Source: a virus. Taken from it: a stretch of 11,273 bases of DNA. The stretch is taken from the UHGV virus genome UHGV-1977856. One strand, written 5' to 3'. The notes below the pieces were generated by a model. That model was not told the origin of the DNA. It saw only the letters and a list, made by a program, of their open reading frames with translations, and did no database searches. This document shows, piece by piece, positions 118 through 11,050 of the stretch. The first letter of the stretch is position 1. Each line of letters starts with the position of its first letter. The position numbers and the translations under genes are program-made.

Positions 118-386
118 CACAGCAGTGCATCCGCGTCTTAAGTCCGGCATTGTCTCCTCTGCGCCGGTGACTGTGTTATAACGGTTTTAACCTTTAGTTG
201 CCAATTTTCTTCAGTGACAGATTTCACGAAAATATAAGTTACATTATTAATATCGTGATTTTATAAATTAGTGTTTTTTGCTGTTTCATAATGTGCCACG
301 TTGTTCATTATGTTTTTGATTTTTAAGCTCATTGCAATTTTTCTTGTTCCAACTTGTTCCACGTTGTACCCCCTTGTGCAATGATC

Positions 387-411
387 GGTGTAGTTAATGG
401 TGTAGTTAATT
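387..411. repeat. Left terminal direct repeat ggtgtagttaatggtgtagttaatt (tandem 12-mer); candidate integrase arm-type site or att repeat
   Basis: Exact 25-bp match to 11026-11050; extends to 29 bp with one mismatch (ga[t/a]cggtg...). Ends immediately before the int start. Confidence 0.6.
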
Positions 412-4339: not shown

Positions 4340-4639
4340 ATGAAAAAGAAAATTTCTGGCTTTACTGCCAGCGGCCCCGCTCGGCCTGAAATCCGCCCCG
4401 GCGATATTTTCCGGGATAACTACGGCGGCACGGTAACGATTAAAAGCGTGGCGGGACGGTGCGTTACTTACCGCCGTGATGGGTACGGTTATGACTGCGT
4501 GATGCCTGTTTATCAGTTCCGGCGTGATTTTTCGCTGGTACAGGCCACACCACGCAGACAGCCCACCAGCAACGCAAAGGCACGGGCAAATATTCAGAAA
4601 ATGAAAAACATGATTAACGCATTCAGGGGCACAAAATGA
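4340..4639 (+). CDS. Hypothetical small protein (99 aa)
   Basis: SD acAGGAAaataaaaccATG; its stop overlaps the rep start (ATGA). Confidence 0.5.
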   Translation: MKKKISGFTASGPARPEIRPGDIFRDNYGGTVTIKSVAGRCVTYRRDGYGYDCVMPVYQFRRDFSLVQATPRRQPTSNAKARANIQKMKNMINAFRGTK

Positions 4640-6051
4640 AATTGGCACCGAACTTAAAAAAACAGCCACACGACAAAATGACCGAAGTCATTATTTTTGC
4701 GGGTAGTGATGCCTGGGCGCACGCGAAACAATGGCAGGAACAGGACGGGCGACTTGCTGGCGACAACGTGCCACCTGTATGGCTTGGAGACAGCCAGCTT
4801 GACGAACTGGCAGACCTGAAAATCATCGATGATGGTCGCTATTGTGTCCGGCTGTACAAGGCAGGCCACATCAAGCCGTCAAATATTAATGCCATCGGGC
4901 AAAAGCTGGCGGCGGCAGGTGTACGGGATGCGAATTATTACCCTGAGGGAATGCACAGCCAGAAGCTGGAGAACTGGCACGACTACCTGCAACGGATCCG
5001 CGAACAGACAGAGCGCGGGGAAATACTTACTGACGAGCAATACAGCCAGCGAAAAACCACGCTACCAATGAGCATTGGATCTGCAGGGTACGACACACAG
5101 CTTGATTATGTCGTTAAGGGCGTGATTCCGGCTAATTCATTGTGCAGCACATACGGCGCGAGCGGTTCCTATAAATCGTTCCTCGCGTGTTCCTGGGCGT
5201 GTCATGTTGCCACGGGTCGCCACTGGGGAGGCCGCAGGGTGGCGCATGGTTCGGTGATGTATGTCGTCGGTGAAGGGGGGATAGGTGTCCCCCGTCGTAT
5301 CAAGGCATGGGAAATCGTTAATGATGAACGGGTGGAAAATCTGTACCTGGTAAACCGCCCGATTTTTCCGGCAGTCCCGCTTGATGTCGATGAAATGGTC
5401 ATCGCTTCCCGCCAGGTTGAACGGGAAACGGGTAAACCGGTACGCATGATTATTCTGGATACGCTGGCGCGTTGCTTTGGCGGTAATGATGAAAATGACG
5501 CGCGGGATATGGGGGCGTTTATCCGTGGATGTGACGAACTGAAACGACGCACAGGGGCCACAGTGCTGGTGGTTCACCATTCCGGCAAGGATGAAACAAA
5601 GGGGGCGCGTGGTTCCAGTGCATTTCGTGCATCTCTGGACGCTGAATACCGTATTCGCCGTGAAGGTGCAGACAGTGAAGCCCTGGTTATCTCCTGCACC
5701 AAAATGAAGGACGCGGAGGAACTGAAAGAGGCTGCATACGATTTACGTGTGGTGGAGCTTTTTACCGACACTGACGGGGAGTTAATCACGTCGCTGGTGG
5801 TTGTGGATAAACCGCGCCCACCCGTTGAACTGGAGCGCATCGAGGAAGCCGGGAACAAGACGGAGAATCATGCCGCGCTATGGGGCTGTATCCGTTCACG
5901 CACACAGCGCGGCGATAAATGCACAATTCCGTTGTTGCGTGATGATATGAAAAAGCTGGGGTATGAGATGAAACACTTCCGGCGCTGGCTGTACAAGCTG
6001 GAAGGTGATGGCGTTATTGCTATTGACGGTGATGACGTGTGCCCACTGTAA
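4636..6051 (+). CDS. Replication initiator / helicase with RecA-like (AAA_25, RepA-like) ATPase domain; N-terminal ~160 aa of unknown function
   Basis: 471 aa. P-loop-like GASGSYKS, Walker B-like MIILDTLARCFGG, and a VVHHSGKD motif typical of RepA-like helicases. Followed directly by an iteron array. No primase motifs recognised by eye. Confidence 0.8.
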   Translation: MKLAPNLKKQPHDKMTEVIIFAGSDAWAHAKQWQEQDGRLAGDNVPPVWLGDSQLDELADLKIIDDGRYCVRLYKAGHIKPSNINAIGQKLAAAGVRDANYYPEGMHSQKLENWHDYLQRIREQTERGEILTDEQYSQRKTTLPMSIGSAGYDTQLDYVVKGVIPANSLCSTYGASGSYKSFLACSWACHVATGRHWGGRRVAHGSVMYVVGEGGIGVPRRIKAWEIVNDERVENLYLVNRPIFPAVPLDVDEMVIASRQVERETGKPVRMIILDTLARCFGGNDENDARDMGAFIRGCDELKRRTGATVLVVHHSGKDETKGARGSSAFRASLDAEYRIRREGADSEALVISCTKMKDAEELKEAAYDLRVVELFTDTDGELITSLVVVDKPRPPVELERIEEAGNKTENHAALWGCIRSRTQRGDKCTIPLLRDDMKKLGYEMKHFRRWLYKLEGDGVIAIDGDDVCPL

Positions 6052-6245
6052 AAAGTGGGTAGTAAAAGTGGGGAGTGTGGGGAATTTAACAAAATTGAAA
6101 CGCGATTCCCCACTTTCCCACCTGTATATACCCCAAAAAGTGGGGAATAAAAATACATTGAAAAACATCACGTTAGAATCACAAAAAAAGAAGTGGGGAG
6201 ATGTTGGGTAATTTCAAAAAGTGGGTAGTAAAAGTGGGGAGCAGT
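6052..6245. repeat. Iteron-type replication origin
   Basis: AAGTGGG(G/T)A(G/A) recurs at 6053, 6066, 6077, 6138, 6191, 6219 and 6232, plus one inverted copy (ttccccactt, 6106-6115). A 24-bp block aaaagtgggtagtaaaagtggggag is duplicated at 6051-6075 and 6217-6241, bracketing an AT-rich core (6150-6190). Confidence 0.7.
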
Positions 6246-6935: not shown

Positions 6936-6960
6936 AAGCCGGAACAATCCGGCTTTTTTA
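6936..6960 (+). terminator. Rho-independent terminator after ssb
   Basis: Hairpin agccgg-aacaat-ccggct followed by tttttta, 15 nt after the ssb stop. Confidence 0.7.
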
Positions 6961-7034
6961 CGGGTCCTCCCGATGGAGTGGCCTTGCCACGGGGCGGGAG
7001 CGGCGCGGAAAAAGGCTGGTTTTTGCATTTTCAT
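6954..7034. repeat. Copy A of a duplicated ~80-bp GC-rich element containing a cosN-like motif
   Basis: Near-identical to 9489-9570; differs only in an internal segment (atggagtggcc versus gtgtggtgtcc). Contains ACGGGGCGGGAGCGGCGCGG at 6989-7008. Confidence 0.75.
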
Positions 7035-7345: not shown

Positions 7346-7555
7346 GTGAATTGTATTAACGACCTGAACACAGGCGAGGTAAAAGGTGGTTCCGTTCATC
7401 TGGATGCGCAGACCGTTATGCGCCTTAAGCAGTACAGGATCGACCACATAAATCATCATCCTGACCAACCATTACCAGGTGTGGCGCAGATTGTCAGACA
7501 CGCAGTTAACGCGTGGCTTGATAAGAATGGTTTTGCATCTGGGGGTGAGCAATGA
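7346..7555 (+). CDS. Hypothetical small protein (69 aa), first gene of the capsid operon
   Basis: GTG start with a strong SD (aagaggaag, about 6-nt spacing); its stop overlaps the protease::MCP start (ATGA). Confidence 0.55.
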   Translation: MNCINDLNTGEVKGGSVHLDAQTVMRLKQYRIDHINHHPDQPLPGVAQIVRHAVNAWLDKNGFASGGEQ

Positions 7556-9465
7556 ATCACTGGTACACCATTAAGGCGGCGGGTGTTCGCGGAGCGGCAG
7601 AAATATCCATCTATGAAGAAATTGGCGGCTTCGGTATCACCGCGAAGCAGTTTGCGGAAGACCTGAAAGCCCTGGGCGATGTCTCACATATCGACCTGCG
7701 GATCCATTCGCCAGGTGGTGACGTGTTTGAAGGCATCGCCATCTATAACCTGTTACGGAATCATCCGGCAGAAATTACGGTTTATATCGATGGTGTTGCG
7801 GCTTCAATGGCTTCGGTTGTCGCAATGGCTGGCGATCGTGTTGTGATGCCGGAAAACGCCATGATGATGATACATAAGCCGTGGGGTATCTCTGGCGGAA
7901 ATGCTGGTGATATGCGTGATTATGCTGATTTGCTGGATAAGGTGGAAACCGTGTTAGTCCCTGCTTATGCCAGAAAAACGGGCAAATCAGCACAGGAAAT
8001 TACCGCCATGCTGGAAGATGAAACCTGGATGGACGGGAAAGAATGCCTTAAGCACGGTTTTGCTGATGAATTGTTGCCATCTGTCACAGCAATGGCGCGA
8101 ATTGAATCGAAACGCACAGGAGATTTTTCACACATGCCGGAAACCATTAAAGGAATGATTACCCCGCCACAGGGAGCAGCCAATATTGCTGGTAATGAAC
8201 AGAAGCGCATCAACGGAATAAGTGAAGTGTTTAGCCTGTTCGGCAGTCGTTACGACGGGATCAAAATGGCGTGCCTGGAAGATGCATCATGTACACCGGA
8301 GATGGCCCGTGAAAAGTTGTTGAACGAGATGGGGCGCGAGTCCACGCCATCCAATAAAAATACCCCGGCTCATATTTATGCCGGTAACGGGAACATAACA
8401 GGCGATGCAATTCGTCAGGGGCTTTATTCCCGTCTCGGGTATGAACGCCCAGAGCGGGGAAATCCTTACGCGATGATGAGCCTTTTTGAAATGGCCCAGG
8501 CATCACTAACGGATCGTGGTATCAGTGTTGGCGGTTTTTTAAATCGCTCGCAGGTCGTTAATGCAGCTTTCACACACAGCAGCAGCGATTTTTCTCACAT
8601 TCTGGCTGGTGGTGCTGAAAAATCAGTACTGAAAGGCTGGCAGGACAGCGGCGAAACGTTCCAGAAATGGACGCGTACCGGATCGCTTTCAAACTTTCAT
8701 GAAGCAAAGCGCGTTGGTCTGAATGGTTTTTCAAAGCTGGATAAAGTACCGGAAGGTGCGGAATATAAATACATCACCACCAGCGATAAAGGTGTACCTA
8801 TTGCGCTGGCCACATACGGTAATATTTTTTCTGTTACCCGTCAGGCCATTATCAACGATGACCTGACCCAGTTAACTACAATCCCCATGGCGATGGGGCG
8901 TGCGGCCGCCAGAACAGTAGGTAATCTGGTTTATCTTCTGTTAACCAGCAACGGCAAATTTACGGATAGTAAAGCGTTATTCCATGCCGATCATAAAAAT
9001 CTTATTGCGAAGGATATGGACATGGAGGGGCTTAACGAAGCCCGTAAGCTGATGCGACTACAGGAGGATGCCAACGGCGACTCCCTGAATATTACCCCCG
9101 CATTTGTCCTGGTCCCCGCCGCGCTGGAGTCTGCCGCACATCGCGCCATTCTGTCATCGTCATCACTCTTTCCGGTTGATGGTGATGGCACTATCAATCA
9201 GAACCCCGGCATCATTAACGTGGTGAAAGATATGGCTGAGGTTATTGTTGAGCCACGTCTTGATAAGAACAATAACAAGGAGTGGTATGTAGCCGCAGCG
9301 AAAGGGATGGACACGATAGAGGTCGCTTATCTTGATGGTATTGATACGCCATATCTTGAGGAGCAGGTGGGCTTTACTGTTGATGGTGTCGCCTGGAAGG
9401 TGCGCATAGATGCAGGTGTCGCGGCCCTCGATTATCGTGGACTACTGAAATCGAACGGAGCATGA
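7552..9465 (+). CDS. Fusion protein: ClpP-like (S14) prohead protease N-terminal domain + HK97-fold / Mu gpT-like major capsid protein C-terminal domain
   Basis: 637 aa. N-terminus carries ClpP motifs (HSPGGDVFEGIAIYNLL...IDGVAASMASVVAMAGDRVVMPENAMMMIHKPWG). C-terminal ~330 aa fit the major-head-subunit pattern (KYITTSDKGVPIALATYGNIFSVTRQAIINDDL...IPMAMGRAAART...ITPAFVLVPAALESAA). Confidence 0.85.
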   Translation: MNHWYTIKAAGVRGAAEISIYEEIGGFGITAKQFAEDLKALGDVSHIDLRIHSPGGDVFEGIAIYNLLRNHPAEITVYIDGVAASMASVVAMAGDRVVMPENAMMMIHKPWGISGGNAGDMRDYADLLDKVETVLVPAYARKTGKSAQEITAMLEDETWMDGKECLKHGFADELLPSVTAMARIESKRTGDFSHMPETIKGMITPPQGAANIAGNEQKRINGISEVFSLFGSRYDGIKMACLEDASCTPEMAREKLLNEMGRESTPSNKNTPAHIYAGNGNITGDAIRQGLYSRLGYERPERGNPYAMMSLFEMAQASLTDRGISVGGFLNRSQVVNAAFTHSSSDFSHILAGGAEKSVLKGWQDSGETFQKWTRTGSLSNFHEAKRVGLNGFSKLDKVPEGAEYKYITTSDKGVPIALATYGNIFSVTRQAIINDDLTQLTTIPMAMGRAAARTVGNLVYLLLTSNGKFTDSKALFHADHKNLIAKDMDMEGLNEARKLMRLQEDANGDSLNITPAFVLVPAALESAAHRAILSSSSLFPVDGDGTINQNPGIINVVKDMAEVIVEPRLDKNNNKEWYVAAAKGMDTIEVAYLDGIDTPYLEEQVGFTVDGVAWKVRIDAGVAALDYRGLLKSNGA

Positions 9466-9472
9466 CAACAAG

Positions 9473-9495
9473 GGCGGCGACAGCCGCCTTTTTTT
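9473..9495 (+). terminator. Rho-independent terminator after the capsid gene; stem overlaps a lambda cohesive-end-like GGGCGGCGAC
   Basis: Hairpin ggcggc-gaca-gccgcc followed by ttttttt, 8 nt after the stop. Confidence 0.65.
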
Positions 9496-9570
9496 ACGGG
9501 TCCTCCCGGTGTGGTGTCCTTGCCACGGGGCGGGAGCGGCGCGGAAAAAGGCTGGTTTTTGCATTTTCAT
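9489..9570. repeat. Copy B of the duplicated ~80-bp GC-rich element containing a cosN-like motif
   Basis: Matches 6954-7034. Contains ACGGGGCGGGAGCGGCGCGG at 9525-9544. Confidence 0.75.
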
Positions 9571-9723
9571 TCGTCATTATCATCTTTCTATCATATTGAA
9601 TATTAAGTGTTTTTATTTTTGGTATGTTAATTTCGCTTATTTTGTGTTCAACATGCAGCGCGTTTTTTGACCTTTTTTGAAAGATATTTGCAAGATGCAT
9701 GTTTAAAACATTCTGGAGCGGGT

Positions 9724-10209
9724 ATGGATCGGGAACTGAAAAATCTGATGCTGAACATTAACCAGCTGGCGGCGATAGCGGGAATATGTCGCCAGACTGC
9801 GGCGGCAAGGCTGAAAAATATCCAGCCAGCCGGAGGACATGACAAGCTGAAACTCTATCGGGTGACTGACATTCTGACCTGTTTTCTTGATCTTCCCGTT
9901 CCGGCATCACTGGAAGAAATGGAGCCACACGACCGTAAGGCCTGGTATCAGTCCGAACGTGAGCGCCTCAAGTTCGAACAGGAAACGGCGCAACTCATAC
10001 CCGCCGATGATGTGCGAAAAGAGATGGCTATATGGGGAGAAATCGTAAGCGAGGAACTGGAAAAACTCCCCAGTATTCTGGCACGTGATGCTGGGCTTAA
10101 ACCGATGGCAGTAAACAGAGTGCAGTCAATTATTGACGATTTGTGTAATCAGATTATCAGCCGGATGGTGAAAAATGACGTAGTGAATGAGGTCGCAAAA
10201 CAGGCATGA
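9724..10209 (+). CDS. Small terminase subunit, lambda Nu1-like (N-terminal winged-HTH); candidate packaging-specificity / redirection protein
   Basis: ATG 9724 has an SD (GGAG, 7-nt spacing); the ORF-track start 9667 is a TTG. The 162-aa product parallels lambda gpNu1 in length and pattern: NINQLAAIAGICRQTAAARL / AGGHDKLKLYRVTDIL versus Nu1 NKKQLADIFGASIRTIQNW / GGGKGNEVLYDSAAVI, and C-terminal EIVSEELEKLPSILARD versus IAGEIASILDGLPLSV (Nu1 recalled from memory). Confidence 0.7.
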   Translation: MDRELKNLMLNINQLAAIAGICRQTAAARLKNIQPAGGHDKLKLYRVTDILTCFLDLPVPASLEEMEPHDRKAWYQSERERLKFEQETAQLIPADDVRKEMAIWGEIVSEELEKLPSILARDAGLKPMAVNRVQSIIDDLCNQIISRMVKNDVVNEVAKQA

Positions 10210-10493
10210 TAATGACCGAATCTGAAATACTGCGATTAATCCGCCGTGCTGGTGGAATCAGCCAGCTGGCTGACGAACATGCCAAGCAGCCGGATACAGT
10301 CACCGCTGAAAATTACGCGCGTGTGGTGGCTGAGGTGATGCACCGTGACGGTATTGAGTTTAACGGCGTGGATATGCGCAATATACGCACCAGAGTTCTG
10401 GAGATGTTGTCATACCGTCGCCGCGTGCAGATGTACCAGGAGAAAGAAAAAATTACGTACCGGTGGAAGAAGCCGGAGCGGTTACGACGTTAA
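10206..10493 (+). CDS. Hypothetical protein (95 aa) translationally coupled to the small terminase
   Basis: ATGA overlap with the TerS stop; protein-like composition; no recognisable domain. It occupies the position where lambda has gene A, but is far too small to be a large terminase. Confidence 0.5.
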   Translation: MIMTESEILRLIRRAGGISQLADEHAKQPDTVTAENYARVVAEVMHRDGIEFNGVDMRNIRTRVLEMLSYRRRVQMYQEKEKITYRWKKPERLRR

Positions 10494-10499
10494 CTTGTG

Positions 10500-10539
10500 G
10501 TGACATACCGTGACGGAGAGTGACACACAGTGACAAAAA
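10500..10539 (+). repeat. Four tandem 10-bp repeats with a GTGAC core
   Basis: gtgacatacc gtgacggaga gtgacacaca gtgacaaaaa, exactly 10-bp period, beginning 7 nt after the stop of the last gene. Confidence 0.55.
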
Positions 10540-11025
10540 AGACGGTATTTAAATCGGGTGGTGTTTAATACCCCCAGGGGGATAGAAATCCCTACACCTC
10601 ATTGCTTATGGGACCGCCCGCCTACCCTTGTTCACATCGCCGCAGGTTCGAAAACTTTTTTTGGGAAGGTGTGCACGGGATTGATAGATGAGGTCTATCT
10701 ATAAAAAATCACAAAATCCGCGCCATTGCTGGATCCGCCAAAAATCCCCCACCTTACGGCAGACAAAGAAAACGCGAATTATGGGCCTGTTGCAGAGAAA
10801 AAAGGTCTCACTAGTTTTGCGCACCCTAGCATCGAGGTTCGTCAGCCTCCCATCAGCAACCAGATAACTAATCTCGCTGGTGGGCATGATGCCGATATGG
10901 GGACTTCCATAACGGTTTATCCGTGATCATCCACCAGCTTCATGGCGGATAGCCGGAAAATGATAACGGTATAGCCCGTCGCTTGTGTCTATTTGTTCCG
11001 CATTGTTGCATACAGTGCACCGAAC

Positions 11026-11050
11026 GGTGTAGTTAATGGTGTAGTTAATT
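11026..11050. repeat. Right terminal direct repeat ggtgtagttaatggtgtagttaatt
   Basis: Exact 25-bp match to 387-411. Confidence 0.6.

What the first reader, a model, noticed from the sequence alone, without database searches (positions are those of the whole stretch)
10500..10539. Four exactly phased GTGAC decamers right after the packaging module
gtgacatacc gtgacggaga gtgacacaca gtgacaaaaa begins 7 nt after the last gene. The 10-bp register suggests a protein-binding array on one helix face. Candidates are small-terminase or host-factor binding, a cosQ-like or packaging-termination element, or a regulator site. It opens a ~530-bp non-coding region running to the right arm repeat.
Basis: seen in the sequence. 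Interest (0 to 1): 0.5.

Follow-up and report, generated by a model that had tools for sequence, protein, structure and literature searches.

The report
Phased GTGAC iteron-like array in satellite
A phage-parasitising island of E. coli carries four GTGAC motifs spaced exactly one DNA turn apart just after its last gene; they are probably not a packaging signal but look like the origin repeats bound by the replication initiator of common E. coli prophages, so the island may recruit or soak up that phage protein.

Summary
The array is real: four GTGAC cores with exact 10-bp spacing at 10500-10539, starting 7 nt after the stop codon of the last gene (0 of 200 shuffles). The window is an EcCICFT073-type PICI satellite. 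The array is a separable accessory module. Relatives carry 4 or 5 copies, and losses of whole units keep the register. It occurs behind four different packaging-specificity genes (DUF1441 TerS, another TerS-like gene, Rpp, TerL) and before at least three cos types. It is absent from close homologues and from EcCICFT073 itself. The satellite's TerS has its own phage-type cos directly upstream of its gene. A TerS, cosB or cosQ role is therefore not supported. A context-free scan showed that phased GTGAC decamers are mostly origin iterons inside phage replisome-organiser (O-like) genes. That initiator is present in 38% of complete E. coli genomes but in 44 of 60 array-bearing chromosomes; a control initiator was found in 8 of 60. 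The satellite encodes no such protein, and its own origin uses different iterons. Best reading (about 0.35): an ectopic iteron cluster that binds a helper prophage's initiator, as a hijack or a decoy. Binding is untested, and one known helper lacks this initiator.

The parts
10500..10539 (+). Array of four GTGAC cores at exact 10-bp spacing (spacers ATACC, GGAGA, ACACA, AAAAA). Relatives have a fifth unit, GTGACAACCA.
10535..10554 (+). Conserved A/T-rich right flank AAAAAAGACGGTATTTAAAT. The AAAAAGACGGT part follows the array in every allele.
10556..10575 (+). GC-stem hairpin GGGTGGTGTTTAATACCCCC. In the L037 subgroup it is followed by T8 and forms an intrinsic terminator; there is no T-tract in this window.
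10571..10581 (.). Palindrome CCCCCAGGGGG, present just upstream of every cos type in the family.
10577..10687 (+). HK97-like cos-like stretch. It matches the DNA immediately upstream of terS (after the HNH and lysis genes) in phages PhiR49_2, 689R5, 640R1, 606R7, 813R8 and mEp235.
10206..10493 (+). Last gene: 95-aa protein (phrog_1561, no Pfam family). It is the only constant neighbour of the array. Only its last ~25 codons are linked to array presence.
9667..10209 (+). DUF1441 (Nu1-like) small terminase, about 71% nucleotide identity to the terS of mEp460 and phi458.
9490..9666 (+). phi458-type cos region (cosN-like CACGGGGCGGGAGCGGCGCGG plus the segment up to terS), at least 80% identical to the DNA upstream of terS in phi458. 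This is the likely site of action of the satellite's own TerS.
6050..6245 (.). The satellite's own replication origin: at least 8 AAAGTGGGGA iterons in both orientations around A/T-rich DNA, directly after the pri/rep stop codon. It shows that the GTGAC array is not the Rep origin.
11025..11050 (+). Right copy of the 26-bp terminal direct repeat CGGTGTAGTTAATGGTGTAGTTAATT (left copy at 386-411). The array lies 485 bp inside it.

Best explanation
The array is a cluster of iteron-type protein-binding sites, with one monomer per GTGAC and all sites on the same helix face. It copies the core and phasing of the origin iterons recognised by the N-terminal domain of a very common class of lambdoid replisome-organiser (O-like, DnaT-domain) initiators. 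The satellite encodes no such protein. The proposed binder is therefore supplied in trans by a co-resident helper prophage, for example 689R5-like phages, which also share the satellite's HK97-type cos. Binding would either load the helper's replication machinery onto satellite DNA (an accessory origin) or titrate the initiator away from the helper origin (a decoy that causes interference). What is shown: the anatomy of the array, its modularity, its independence from the terminase and cos type, the identity of GTGAC decamer arrays as origin iterons in phages, and the genome-level co-occurrence. What is inferred: that the initiator binds this array, and what follows from that binding.
For: (1) In a context-free scan of viral contigs for GTGAC-N5 x4, at least 68 of 120 loci placed the array inside an initiator gene. 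The array lies on the strand opposite the GTGAC reading (read as GTCAC, encoding VT/SH linker codons). In 22 loci a ~445-aa DnaB-like ORF lies just downstream on the same strand, which is the lambda O/ori arrangement. (2) E. coli phage 689R5 has two such arrays (x4 and x5, spacing 10-11 bp) inside its O gene, and the same phage carries the cos type found in the window. Phages 640R1, 606R7 and 813R8 have the same initiator N-terminal half and the same cos type. (3) GTGAC arrays are often iteron-like, meaning all three spacers differ: 74 of 120, versus 3 of 54 and 25 of 80 for same-composition control pentamers. (4) The initiator's N-terminal half is in 2078 of 5426 complete E. coli genomes. Among the 60 listed array-bearing chromosomes, 44 also carry it, or about 29 of 43 after collapsing clones. 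The base rate is 33-38%, the odds ratio is 5.8 and p ranges from 1e-4 to 1e-10. An unrelated common prophage initiator is found in only 8 of 60 against a 28% base rate. (5) No window ORF is homologous to the initiator, and the satellite's own origin uses different iterons. (6) The array is independent of the integrase, regulators, replicase, capsid genes, terminase-specificity gene and cos type. (7) The same interval in related satellites also holds a second origin-like structure that is not cognate to their Rep. (8) According to the abstracts listed, ectopic lambda ori copies or replication-region plasmids inhibit the cognate phages (PMC4488673, PMC3349717). This is a laboratory precedent for the decoy variant.
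Against: Only the 5-bp core and the phasing are shared. The base before the core is mostly C in phage iterons and mostly A in the satellite. There is no obvious DNA-unwinding element arranged as in the phage origins. The one satellite whose helper is known, because it is embedded in that prophage's gpA gene (L007 in strain AREA_492), has a helper with a different initiator (TTGACCC iterons at a 15-bp period) and no GTGAC array. PhiR49_2, the closest cos match, and phi458, the closest terS match, have no GTGAC arrays. The co-occurrence may reflect a shared helper through the cos type rather than the array itself: array-less satellites with the same cos type were too few to test (6 of 10). Phylogenetic non-independence was corrected only crudely. 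About a quarter to a third of array-bearing chromosomes (16 of 60; 14 of 43 after collapsing clones) lack the initiator. No binding data exist.
Confidence: 0.35

Rival explanations
1. The array is an architectural accessory of the right-end cos region. An unidentified host or helper protein polymerises on it and bends or stiffens the DNA upstream of the cos-like site, doing the job that IHF-type sites do in array-less relatives.
For: The array always lies between the last gene and a cos-like sequence. Of the array-less alleles, 15 of 25 have a perfect IHF core consensus (YAANNNNTTGATW) starting at the stop codon, against 0 of 16 array alleles; the background is 2 matches per 22.5 kb. EcCICFT073 has 3-4 such units at this position. 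The two elements are therefore mutually exclusive occupants of the same position.
Against: The distance to the cos-like sequence ranges from under 10 bp to about 390 bp, and in L037 a terminator and an origin-like element lie in between. The array is independent of cos type. It is dispensable in close relatives, and some have the cos directly after the gene (L014, L018, L063). The array is not intrinsically curved (24 degrees, equal to shuffles). In HK97, TerS binds +15 to +29 downstream of the cut (PMC11331095). No binder is known.
Confidence: 0.2
2. The array is the operator or loading site for the 95-aa protein encoded immediately upstream.
For: The ~94-aa gene is the only satellite gene always found next to the array, at 7 to 115 bp. 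Its C-terminus is very basic. Its last ~25 codons are co-inherited with the array.
Against: More than half of the homologous genes have no array (30 without, 22 with). The N-terminal and central parts are mosaic across array-positive and array-negative loci, so only local linkage is seen. The final residues are identical in both classes. The AlphaFold model is of low confidence (pLDDT 61), all-helical, and shows no recognisable DNA-binding fold. There is no Pfam or PDB relative.
Confidence: 0.12
3. The array works at the RNA level, as a 3'-UTR element or 3'-UTR-derived small RNA carrying repeated GUGAC.
For: The array starts 7 nt after the stop codon. In the L037 subgroup it is followed within about 30 nt by a canonical hairpin plus U8 terminator preceded by an A/U-rich stretch.
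Against: There is no Rfam match. The fold energy is not better than shuffles (z = -1.7 and -0.4). The terminator T-tract is absent in the window and in most alleles. In L108 the array is 115 bp past the stop codon. Exact 10-nt phasing and replacement by IHF-type DNA sites point to a DNA-level role.
Confidence: 0.08
4. The array is a binding site for the Nu1-like small terminase (cosB-like) or a cosQ-like packaging-termination element.
For: It lies next to the packaging genes and upstream of a cos-like site.
Against: The array occurs with four different specificity genes, including Rpp and TerL. No GTGAC array exists in phi458, the phage with the closest DUF1441 terS. The satellite has a phi458-type cos directly upstream of its terS. 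The array is absent from BH100, whose terS and 95-aa genes are 93% identical. It is absent from transferable EcCICFT073.
Confidence: 0.05
5. The array has no function. It is a slippage-generated or recombination-derived remnant that hitch-hikes at a recombination junction at the end of the last gene.
For: It has a narrow distribution (97 of 5426 genomes). It sits at a mosaic junction. Units are gained and lost.
Against: The spacers are all different while the cores are identical, which does not fit recent slippage. The array is retained across satellites that differ in almost every other module and across 13 alleles. Its co-occurrence with one specific initiator is non-random.
Confidence: 0.1

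Closest known systems
Origin iterons inside lambdoid initiator genes (lambda O/ori arrangement; here the replisome-organiser / DnaT-domain initiator class of E. coli prophages such as 689R5)
   Same: Four to six direct repeats with a GTGAC core at 10-11 bp phasing and divergent spacers. Copy number is similar.
   Different: The satellite's array is intergenic and lies 3' of an unrelated gene. It is not inside an initiator gene, no cognate initiator is encoded in cis, the flanking bases differ, and there is no obvious unwinding element.
Ectopic-origin interference (plasmids carrying lambda ori or replication-region DNA that inhibit cognate phages: PMC4488673, PMC3349717; lactococcal 'Per' origin decoys, recalled from memory)
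   Same: Initiator-binding repeats placed outside the phage compete for its replication factors. This is the proposed decoy variant.
   Different: Those are laboratory constructs or plasmid-borne whole origins. Here a natural satellite would carry the repeats. No interference has been measured.
cos region of EcCICFT073-type PICIs (Fillol-Salom 2018 and 2019, PMC6092414 and PMC6739421; Murialdo and Feiss 2022, PMC9026076)
   Same: Same element family and gene order (capsid, TerS- or Rpp-like gene, ~94-aa last gene, cos, att), with more than one cos site per island.
   Different: EcCICFT073 has no GTGAC array. The position is occupied by TAACCNGTTGAT + hairpin units. The proposed Rpp/TerS site (R3-PICI) lies downstream of cosN, not upstream.
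Phage P4 crr (a second cis-acting cluster of alpha-protein iterons about 4.5 kb from ori; recalled from memory)
   Same: A satellite carries an iteron cluster several kb away from its origin.
   Different: P4 crr carries the same iterons as the P4 origin and is bound by P4's own alpha protein. Here the array differs from the satellite's own iterons (AAAGTGGGGA).
Phased short-motif packaging sites (P1 pac TGATCA/G hexamers, SPP1 pacL boxes; recalled from memory)
   Same: Short motifs repeated at about one helical turn and bound by a terminase subunit.
   Different: Those sites co-vary with their terminase and flank the cleavage site. This array does neither.

Membership tests
Origin iterons of the GTGAC-type replisome-organiser initiator | At least 4 direct repeats with a GTGAC core at 10-11 bp phasing and non-identical spacers | tested here: met
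Origin iterons of the GTGAC-type replisome-organiser initiator | Located inside, or directly next to, the cognate initiator gene | tested here: not met
   The array is intergenic after an unrelated 95-aa gene, and no initiator homologue is found in the window (hmmsearch).
Origin iterons of the GTGAC-type replisome-organiser initiator | An adjacent DNA-unwinding (A/T- or pyrimidine-rich) tract arranged as in the phage origins | tested here: inconclusive
   A 20-bp stretch that is 75% A/T lies on the 3' side (10535-10554). In the phage arrays the tract lies on the 5' side in the GTGAC orientation.
Origin iterons of the GTGAC-type replisome-organiser initiator | Bound by the initiator's N-terminal domain | not testable with these tools
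   Only indirect evidence: co-occurrence in 44 of 60 chromosomes against a 33-38% base rate.
lambda-type cosB (TerS R sites) | Lies between cosN and the terS gene, and co-varies with TerS specificity | tested here: not met
   The array is 3' of terS and occurs with four different specificity genes. A phage-type cos sits upstream of terS.
cosQ-type termination element | A single short element at a fixed short distance upstream of cosN, present wherever that cos is used | tested here: not met
   The distance is variable (under 10 to about 390 bp). The array is absent in L014, L018 and L063, which have the same cos type.
The satellite's own replication origin (PICI ori) | Iterons immediately 3' of the pri/rep gene, flanking A/T-rich DNA | tested here: not met
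   The own origin is at 6050-6245 with AAAGTGGGGA iterons.
Intrinsic terminator / 3'-UTR small RNA | A GC hairpin followed by a U-tract, and a stable conserved fold | tested here: not met
   No T-tract in the window, z = -1.7 and no Rfam hit. The feature is met only in the L037 subgroup.
EcCICFT073-type PICI (context of the array) | Integrase, AlpA, pri/rep with adjacent origin, partial morphogenesis genes, cos site(s) and flanking direct repeats, about 11 kb in size | tested here: met

The most novel reading that the evidence does not exclude
A phage satellite carries a cluster of its helper's origin iterons, with no cognate initiator gene. It uses the cluster to capture the helper prophage's replisome organiser, either to fire an extra helper-dependent origin or to starve the helper's origin. 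This would be piracy or interference at the level of replication initiation, as an exchangeable module placed next to cos.
Probability: 0.3. Interest if true: 0.75.

Novelty: new variant of a known kind. Interest (0 to 1): 0.55.

Why it matters
Known satellite piracy in E. coli acts on packaging (Rpp, cos mimicry) and on capsid size. If satellites also carry exchangeable copies of helper origin repeats, replication initiation becomes another point of conflict between helper and satellite. It would also help to explain helper range and interference. Phased short-core arrays would then be a computable marker for matching satellites to helpers. The phage side is useful on its own: GTGAC decamers inside the initiator gene mark the origin of a replication module present in 38% of complete E. 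coli genomes.

Tried and rejected
- **TerS/cosB or cosQ role:** rejected on comparative grounds.
- **The satellite's own Rep origin:** rejected; the real origin is at 6050-6245 with other iterons.
- **RNA element:** no Rfam hit, no significant fold, and a terminator only in one subgroup.
- **Promoter:** none found at the array.
- **Intrinsic curvature:** none in a wedge model whose parameters were recalled from memory; the A-tract control gave 120 degrees.
- **Excisionase or integrase arm sites:** considered because lambda Int arm sites contain GTCAC (from memory). Rejected because the array lies 150-500 bp from att at variable distance and occurs with different integrases.
- **MatP/matS (GTGACRNYGTCAC, from memory):** rejected because the repeats are direct, not inverted.
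- **PhoB/OmpR-type boxes:** the spacing and the spacers do not fit (from memory, not tested).
- **Structure of the 95-aa protein:** the model is too poor for a fold search.
- **Cross-species sampling:** only one extra locus, so the family is essentially E. coli/Shigella.
- **Cut site from mEp235 record ends:** that record starts at the terS ATG, so it gives no information.
- **Second iteron structure (GCGGGTTAY):** no match in phages or plasmids.
- **Helper-embedded satellite test:** it went against the favoured hypothesis.
- **Control with array-less satellites of the same cos type:** underpowered, n = 10.

Full report
**1. Observation**

Window 10500-10539 reads GTGACATACC GTGACGGAGA GTGACACACA GTGACAAAAA. 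It starts 7 nt after the TAA stop codon (10491-10493) of a 95-aa ORF. Three GTGAC at 10-bp spacing matched only here, and 0 of 200 dinucleotide-preserving shuffles gave a match. The pentamer itself is not enriched in the window (20 found, 18 expected). The stretch from 10494 to the 26-bp terminal direct repeat (11025-11050, identical to 386-411) is 531 bp.

**2. Context**

The window is an E. coli PICI-type satellite. Its genes are:
- an integrase (412-1662) and AlpA (1862-2218);
- a DUF4222 gene and an AAA_25 primase/helicase (4636-6051);
- an SSB gene;
- a ClpP-protease/major-capsid fusion (7552-9465);
- a DUF1441 (Nu1-like) small terminase (9667-10209);
- the 95-aa gene, phrog_1561.

Its own origin lies directly after the rep gene at about 6050-6245: at least 8 AAAGTGGGGA iterons in both orientations around A/T-rich DNA. 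The experimentally studied EcCICFT073 has the same layout and ends with a 93-aa homologue of the last gene.

Downstream of the array, 10577-10687 matches the DNA immediately upstream of terS in HK97-like phages, after their HNH and lysis genes. These phages are PhiR49_2, 689R5, 640R1, 606R7, 813R8 and mEp235. This stretch is therefore a cos-like site in the same orientation as in the phages. By alignment with PhiR49_2, the array lies roughly 100-150 bp upstream of the probable cut. This position is an inference. In HK97, TerS binds +15 to +29 on the other side of the cut (PMC11331095).

The satellite also has a phi458-type cos directly upstream of its own terS (9490-9666). This segment is at least 80% identical to the DNA upstream of terS in phi458 and contains the cosN-like motif CACGGGGCGGGAGCGGCGCGG. 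A second copy of the 81-bp core, 95% identical, lies at 6954-7034.

**3. Comparative anatomy of the array**

Thirteen distinct alleles were collected from E. coli genomes and IMG/VR contigs.
- Most alleles have five units, with spacers ATACC, GGAGA, AACCA, ACACA and AAAAA.
- The window lacks the AACCA unit, L047 lacks the ACACA unit, and the L108 group lacks the first unit. These are three independent whole-unit losses, and each preserves the 10-bp register.
- L007 has one 9-bp unit.
- Point changes fall about 6:1 in spacers versus cores. This is only suggestive (binomial p about 0.06).
- Every allele is followed by AAAAAGACGGT.

The array is linked to one allele of the last few codons of the ~94-aa gene (...CGACGTTAA). 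In L108, however, it lies 115 bp beyond the stop codon. It is therefore a separable module.

Among 52 scorable homologues of the gene, 22 have the array and 30 do not. The N-terminal and central parts of the protein are mosaic across both classes. Only the last ~25 codons track the array, which indicates physical linkage rather than co-evolution.

**4. What the array is not**

*Not a terminase-specific site.*
- It occurs behind a DUF1441 TerS (the window), a different TerS-like gene (L002), an RppC homologue (L006; PDB 6hlk, E = 2e-33) and a TerL (L037, L108).
- It precedes at least three different cos-like sequences, at distances from under 10 bp to about 390 bp.
- BH100, whose terS and 95-aa genes are 93% identical, lacks it.
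- L014, L018 and L063 have the same HK97-like cos directly after the gene, with no array.
- EcCICFT073, which is transferred by lambda and phi80, lacks it.
- Phage phi458, which has the closest DUF1441 terS, has no GTGAC array anywhere.

*Not the satellite's own Rep origin*.

*Not a recognisable RNA element.* There is no Rfam match. The fold z-scores are -1.7 and -0.4. Only the L037 subgroup has a T8 tract after the hairpin.

*Not a promoter*.

*Not intrinsically curved.* A wedge model gave 24 degrees, the same as shuffles, while an A-tract control gave 120 degrees. The model parameters were recalled from memory.

*The 95-aa protein.* It has no Pfam or PDB relative. Its AlphaFold model is weak (pLDDT 61) and all-helical.

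**5. What phased GTGAC arrays are elsewhere**

I scanned IMG/VR for GTGAC-N5 x4 without regard to context.
- At least 68 of these arrays lie inside a replication-initiator-like gene, on the strand opposite the GTGAC reading. Read as GTCAC, they encode VT/SH-rich linker segments.
- In 22 loci a ~445-aa DnaB-like ORF lies just downstream on the same strand.
- The E. coli representative has a C-terminal DnaT domain, and RefSeq calls it 'phage replisome organizer'.

This is the lambda O/ori arrangement, known from established work. Phage 689R5 has two arrays in its O gene, at 9804-9839 (x4) and 10064-10109 (x5). The second lies next to a pyrimidine-rich tract. The N-terminal half of the protein travels with the arrays, independently of the C-terminal half.

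Same-composition control pentamers gave fewer loci and mostly simple tandem repeats. GATGC gave 54 loci, of which 3 had three different spacers. TGGAC gave 91 loci, and 25 of the 80 scored had three different spacers. For GTGAC the figure was 74 of 120.

**6. Link between the satellite and that initiator**

No window ORF resembles the initiator, so any such binder would have to act in trans. The phages that share the satellite's HK97-type cos (689R5, 640R1, 606R7, 813R8) are the same phages that carry this initiator's N-terminal half.

The initiator is in 2078 of 5426 complete E. coli genomes (38%). The array is in 97 genomes, with one copy in each listed chromosome.

I used a chimeric probe that joined a 143-bp array part to a 100-bp initiator part.
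- 44 of the 60 listed array-bearing chromosomes also hold the initiator. After collapsing obvious clones this is about 29 of 43.
- The base rate is 33-38%. The odds ratio is 5.8, and binomial p ranges from 1e-4 to 1e-10.
- A control probe for an unrelated common prophage initiator found it in 8 of 60, against a 28% base rate. Prophage load therefore does not explain the result.

There are several caveats.
- Array-less satellites with the same cos type are rare: 10 chromosomes, 6 of them with the initiator. I cannot separate an array-specific association from one caused by sharing a helper.
- De-replication was done by eye.
- The one satellite with a known helper, L007, which is embedded in a prophage gpA gene, has a helper with a different initiator (TTGACCC iterons at a 15-bp period) and no GTGAC array.
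- PhiR49_2 and phi458 also lack GTGAC arrays.

**7. Mechanism proposed**

The best-supported reading (confidence about 0.35) is that the array is an iteron-type binding cluster for the replisome organiser of co-resident helper prophages. It would act either as a helper-dependent accessory origin or as a decoy that titrates the initiator.

According to the abstracts listed, ectopic lambda ori copies or replication-region plasmids inhibit the cognate phages (PMC4488673, PMC3349717). This is a laboratory precedent for the decoy variant.

The interval between the last gene and cos also holds a second origin-like structure in L001 and L037: GCGGGTTAY x3, an A/T-rich stretch, then TAACCCGC x3. It is not cognate to those satellites' own Rep origin (CTGTCTACC iterons). 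This fits the idea that the interval collects replication-type cis elements, but the element has no phage or plasmid match.

The main rival (about 0.2) is an architectural role upstream of cos. Of the array-less alleles, 15 of 25 carry a perfect IHF core consensus beginning at the stop codon, against 0 of 16 array alleles. EcCICFT073 has 3-4 such units. The two elements therefore alternate at the same position. Against this rival are the variable distance to cos and the fact that the array is dispensable. Other rivals and their weights are listed separately.

**8. Comparison with known systems, and novelty**

The array works like an origin iteron cluster, but it is not a member of that class in the strict sense. 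It is not in or beside an initiator gene, no cognate initiator is encoded in cis, and binding is untested. It fails the defining features of cosB, cosQ, the PICI origin and a terminator. The PICI papers and the one full-text GTGAC/iteron search consulted here describe no such array. I rate it a new variant of a known kind, with moderate interest. Binding and deletion experiments, and a stratified co-occurrence analysis, would settle it.

Noticed in passing
window 6954-7034 and 9490-9570 (the latter extends to terS at 9667): Two 81-bp copies, 95% identical, of a lambda-like cosN core (CACGGGGCGGGAGCGGCGCGGAAAAAGGC). The second continues, at 80% identity or more, into the DNA that lies upstream of terS in phage phi458. 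Together with the HK97-like site at 10577-10687, the island has three cos-like sites of two types. EcCICFT073 is reported to have two cos sites.
   Followed up: partly
window, whole length (for example 10248, 10876 on + and 10931 on -): There are 14 Chi octamers (8 GCTGGTGG, 6 CCACCAGC) in 11.3 kb. About 0.3 would be expected at random, and about 2.5 at the E. coli genome average (the latter figure is from memory). Correctly oriented Chi sites lie within 300-400 bp on either side of the putative right-end cos cut.
   Followed up: no
L342 23650-23830 (EcCICFT073); L023, L036, L043, L061, L108 just after the ~94-aa gene: Array-less alleles carry 1-4 units of TAACCNGTTGAT(A/T), which is a perfect IHF core consensus; the first unit uses the stop codon. 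Each unit is followed by a small hairpin, and often by a Chi site. Counts are 15 of 25 array-less alleles versus 0 of 16 array alleles.
   Followed up: partly
L037 3040-3192; L001 4426-4578: A second origin-like structure (GCGGGTTAY x3, an A/T-rich stretch, then TAACCCGC x3 inverted) lies between the last gene and cos in 9 of 41 related loci, independently of the array. It is not cognate to those satellites' own Rep origin (CTGTCTACC iterons after the primase gene, L340 6480-6720). It has no BLAST match in the phage or plasmid collections.
   Followed up: partly
L188 (phage 689R5) 9804-9839 and 10064-10109: The O-like initiator gene contains two GTGAC/GTCAC arrays. One lies within the part that encodes the N-terminal DNA-binding half, and the other in the linker next to a pyrimidine-rich tract. 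The N-terminal half together with the arrays recombines independently of the C-terminal DnaT-domain half.
   Followed up: partly
L193 28407-29369 (prophage that hosts the embedded satellite in strain AREA_492): A different initiator carries TTGACCC repeats at a 15-bp period inside its own gene (encoding DPxxVDPSN repeats). This is another example of origin iterons embedded in an initiator linker.
   Followed up: no
L069, L080, L101, L103, L137, L159, L163, L181, L184: In a high-GC prophage family, a near-perfect tandem repeat GTGAC(AAACG/ATTCA) of 4-7 or more units sits between the terL stop codon and the portal start codon. Copy number is variable, as in a VNTR. It is unrelated to the satellite array.
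   Followed up: partly
window 10571-10581; L342 about 23828-23840; L006, L007, L037 at equivalent positions: A palindrome CCCCC(N1-2)GGGGG is conserved immediately upstream of each of the different cos-like types. It may be a shared recognition element, such as a cosQ-equivalent.
   Followed up: no
window 340-411 versus 10990-11050: Beyond the exact 26-bp repeat, the DNA to the left of both copies is about 70% similar (TTGTTCC... motifs). The left flank of the window may therefore be the remnant of the right end of another, related island integrated in tandem.
   Followed up: no
L007 / L193 (E. coli AREA_492, NZ_CP123335.1 about 2825300-2836700): An array-bearing satellite is inserted inside the terminase gpA gene of a lambdoid prophage. 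This helper-embedded configuration has been described for some PICIs (PMC10111431).
   Followed up: partly
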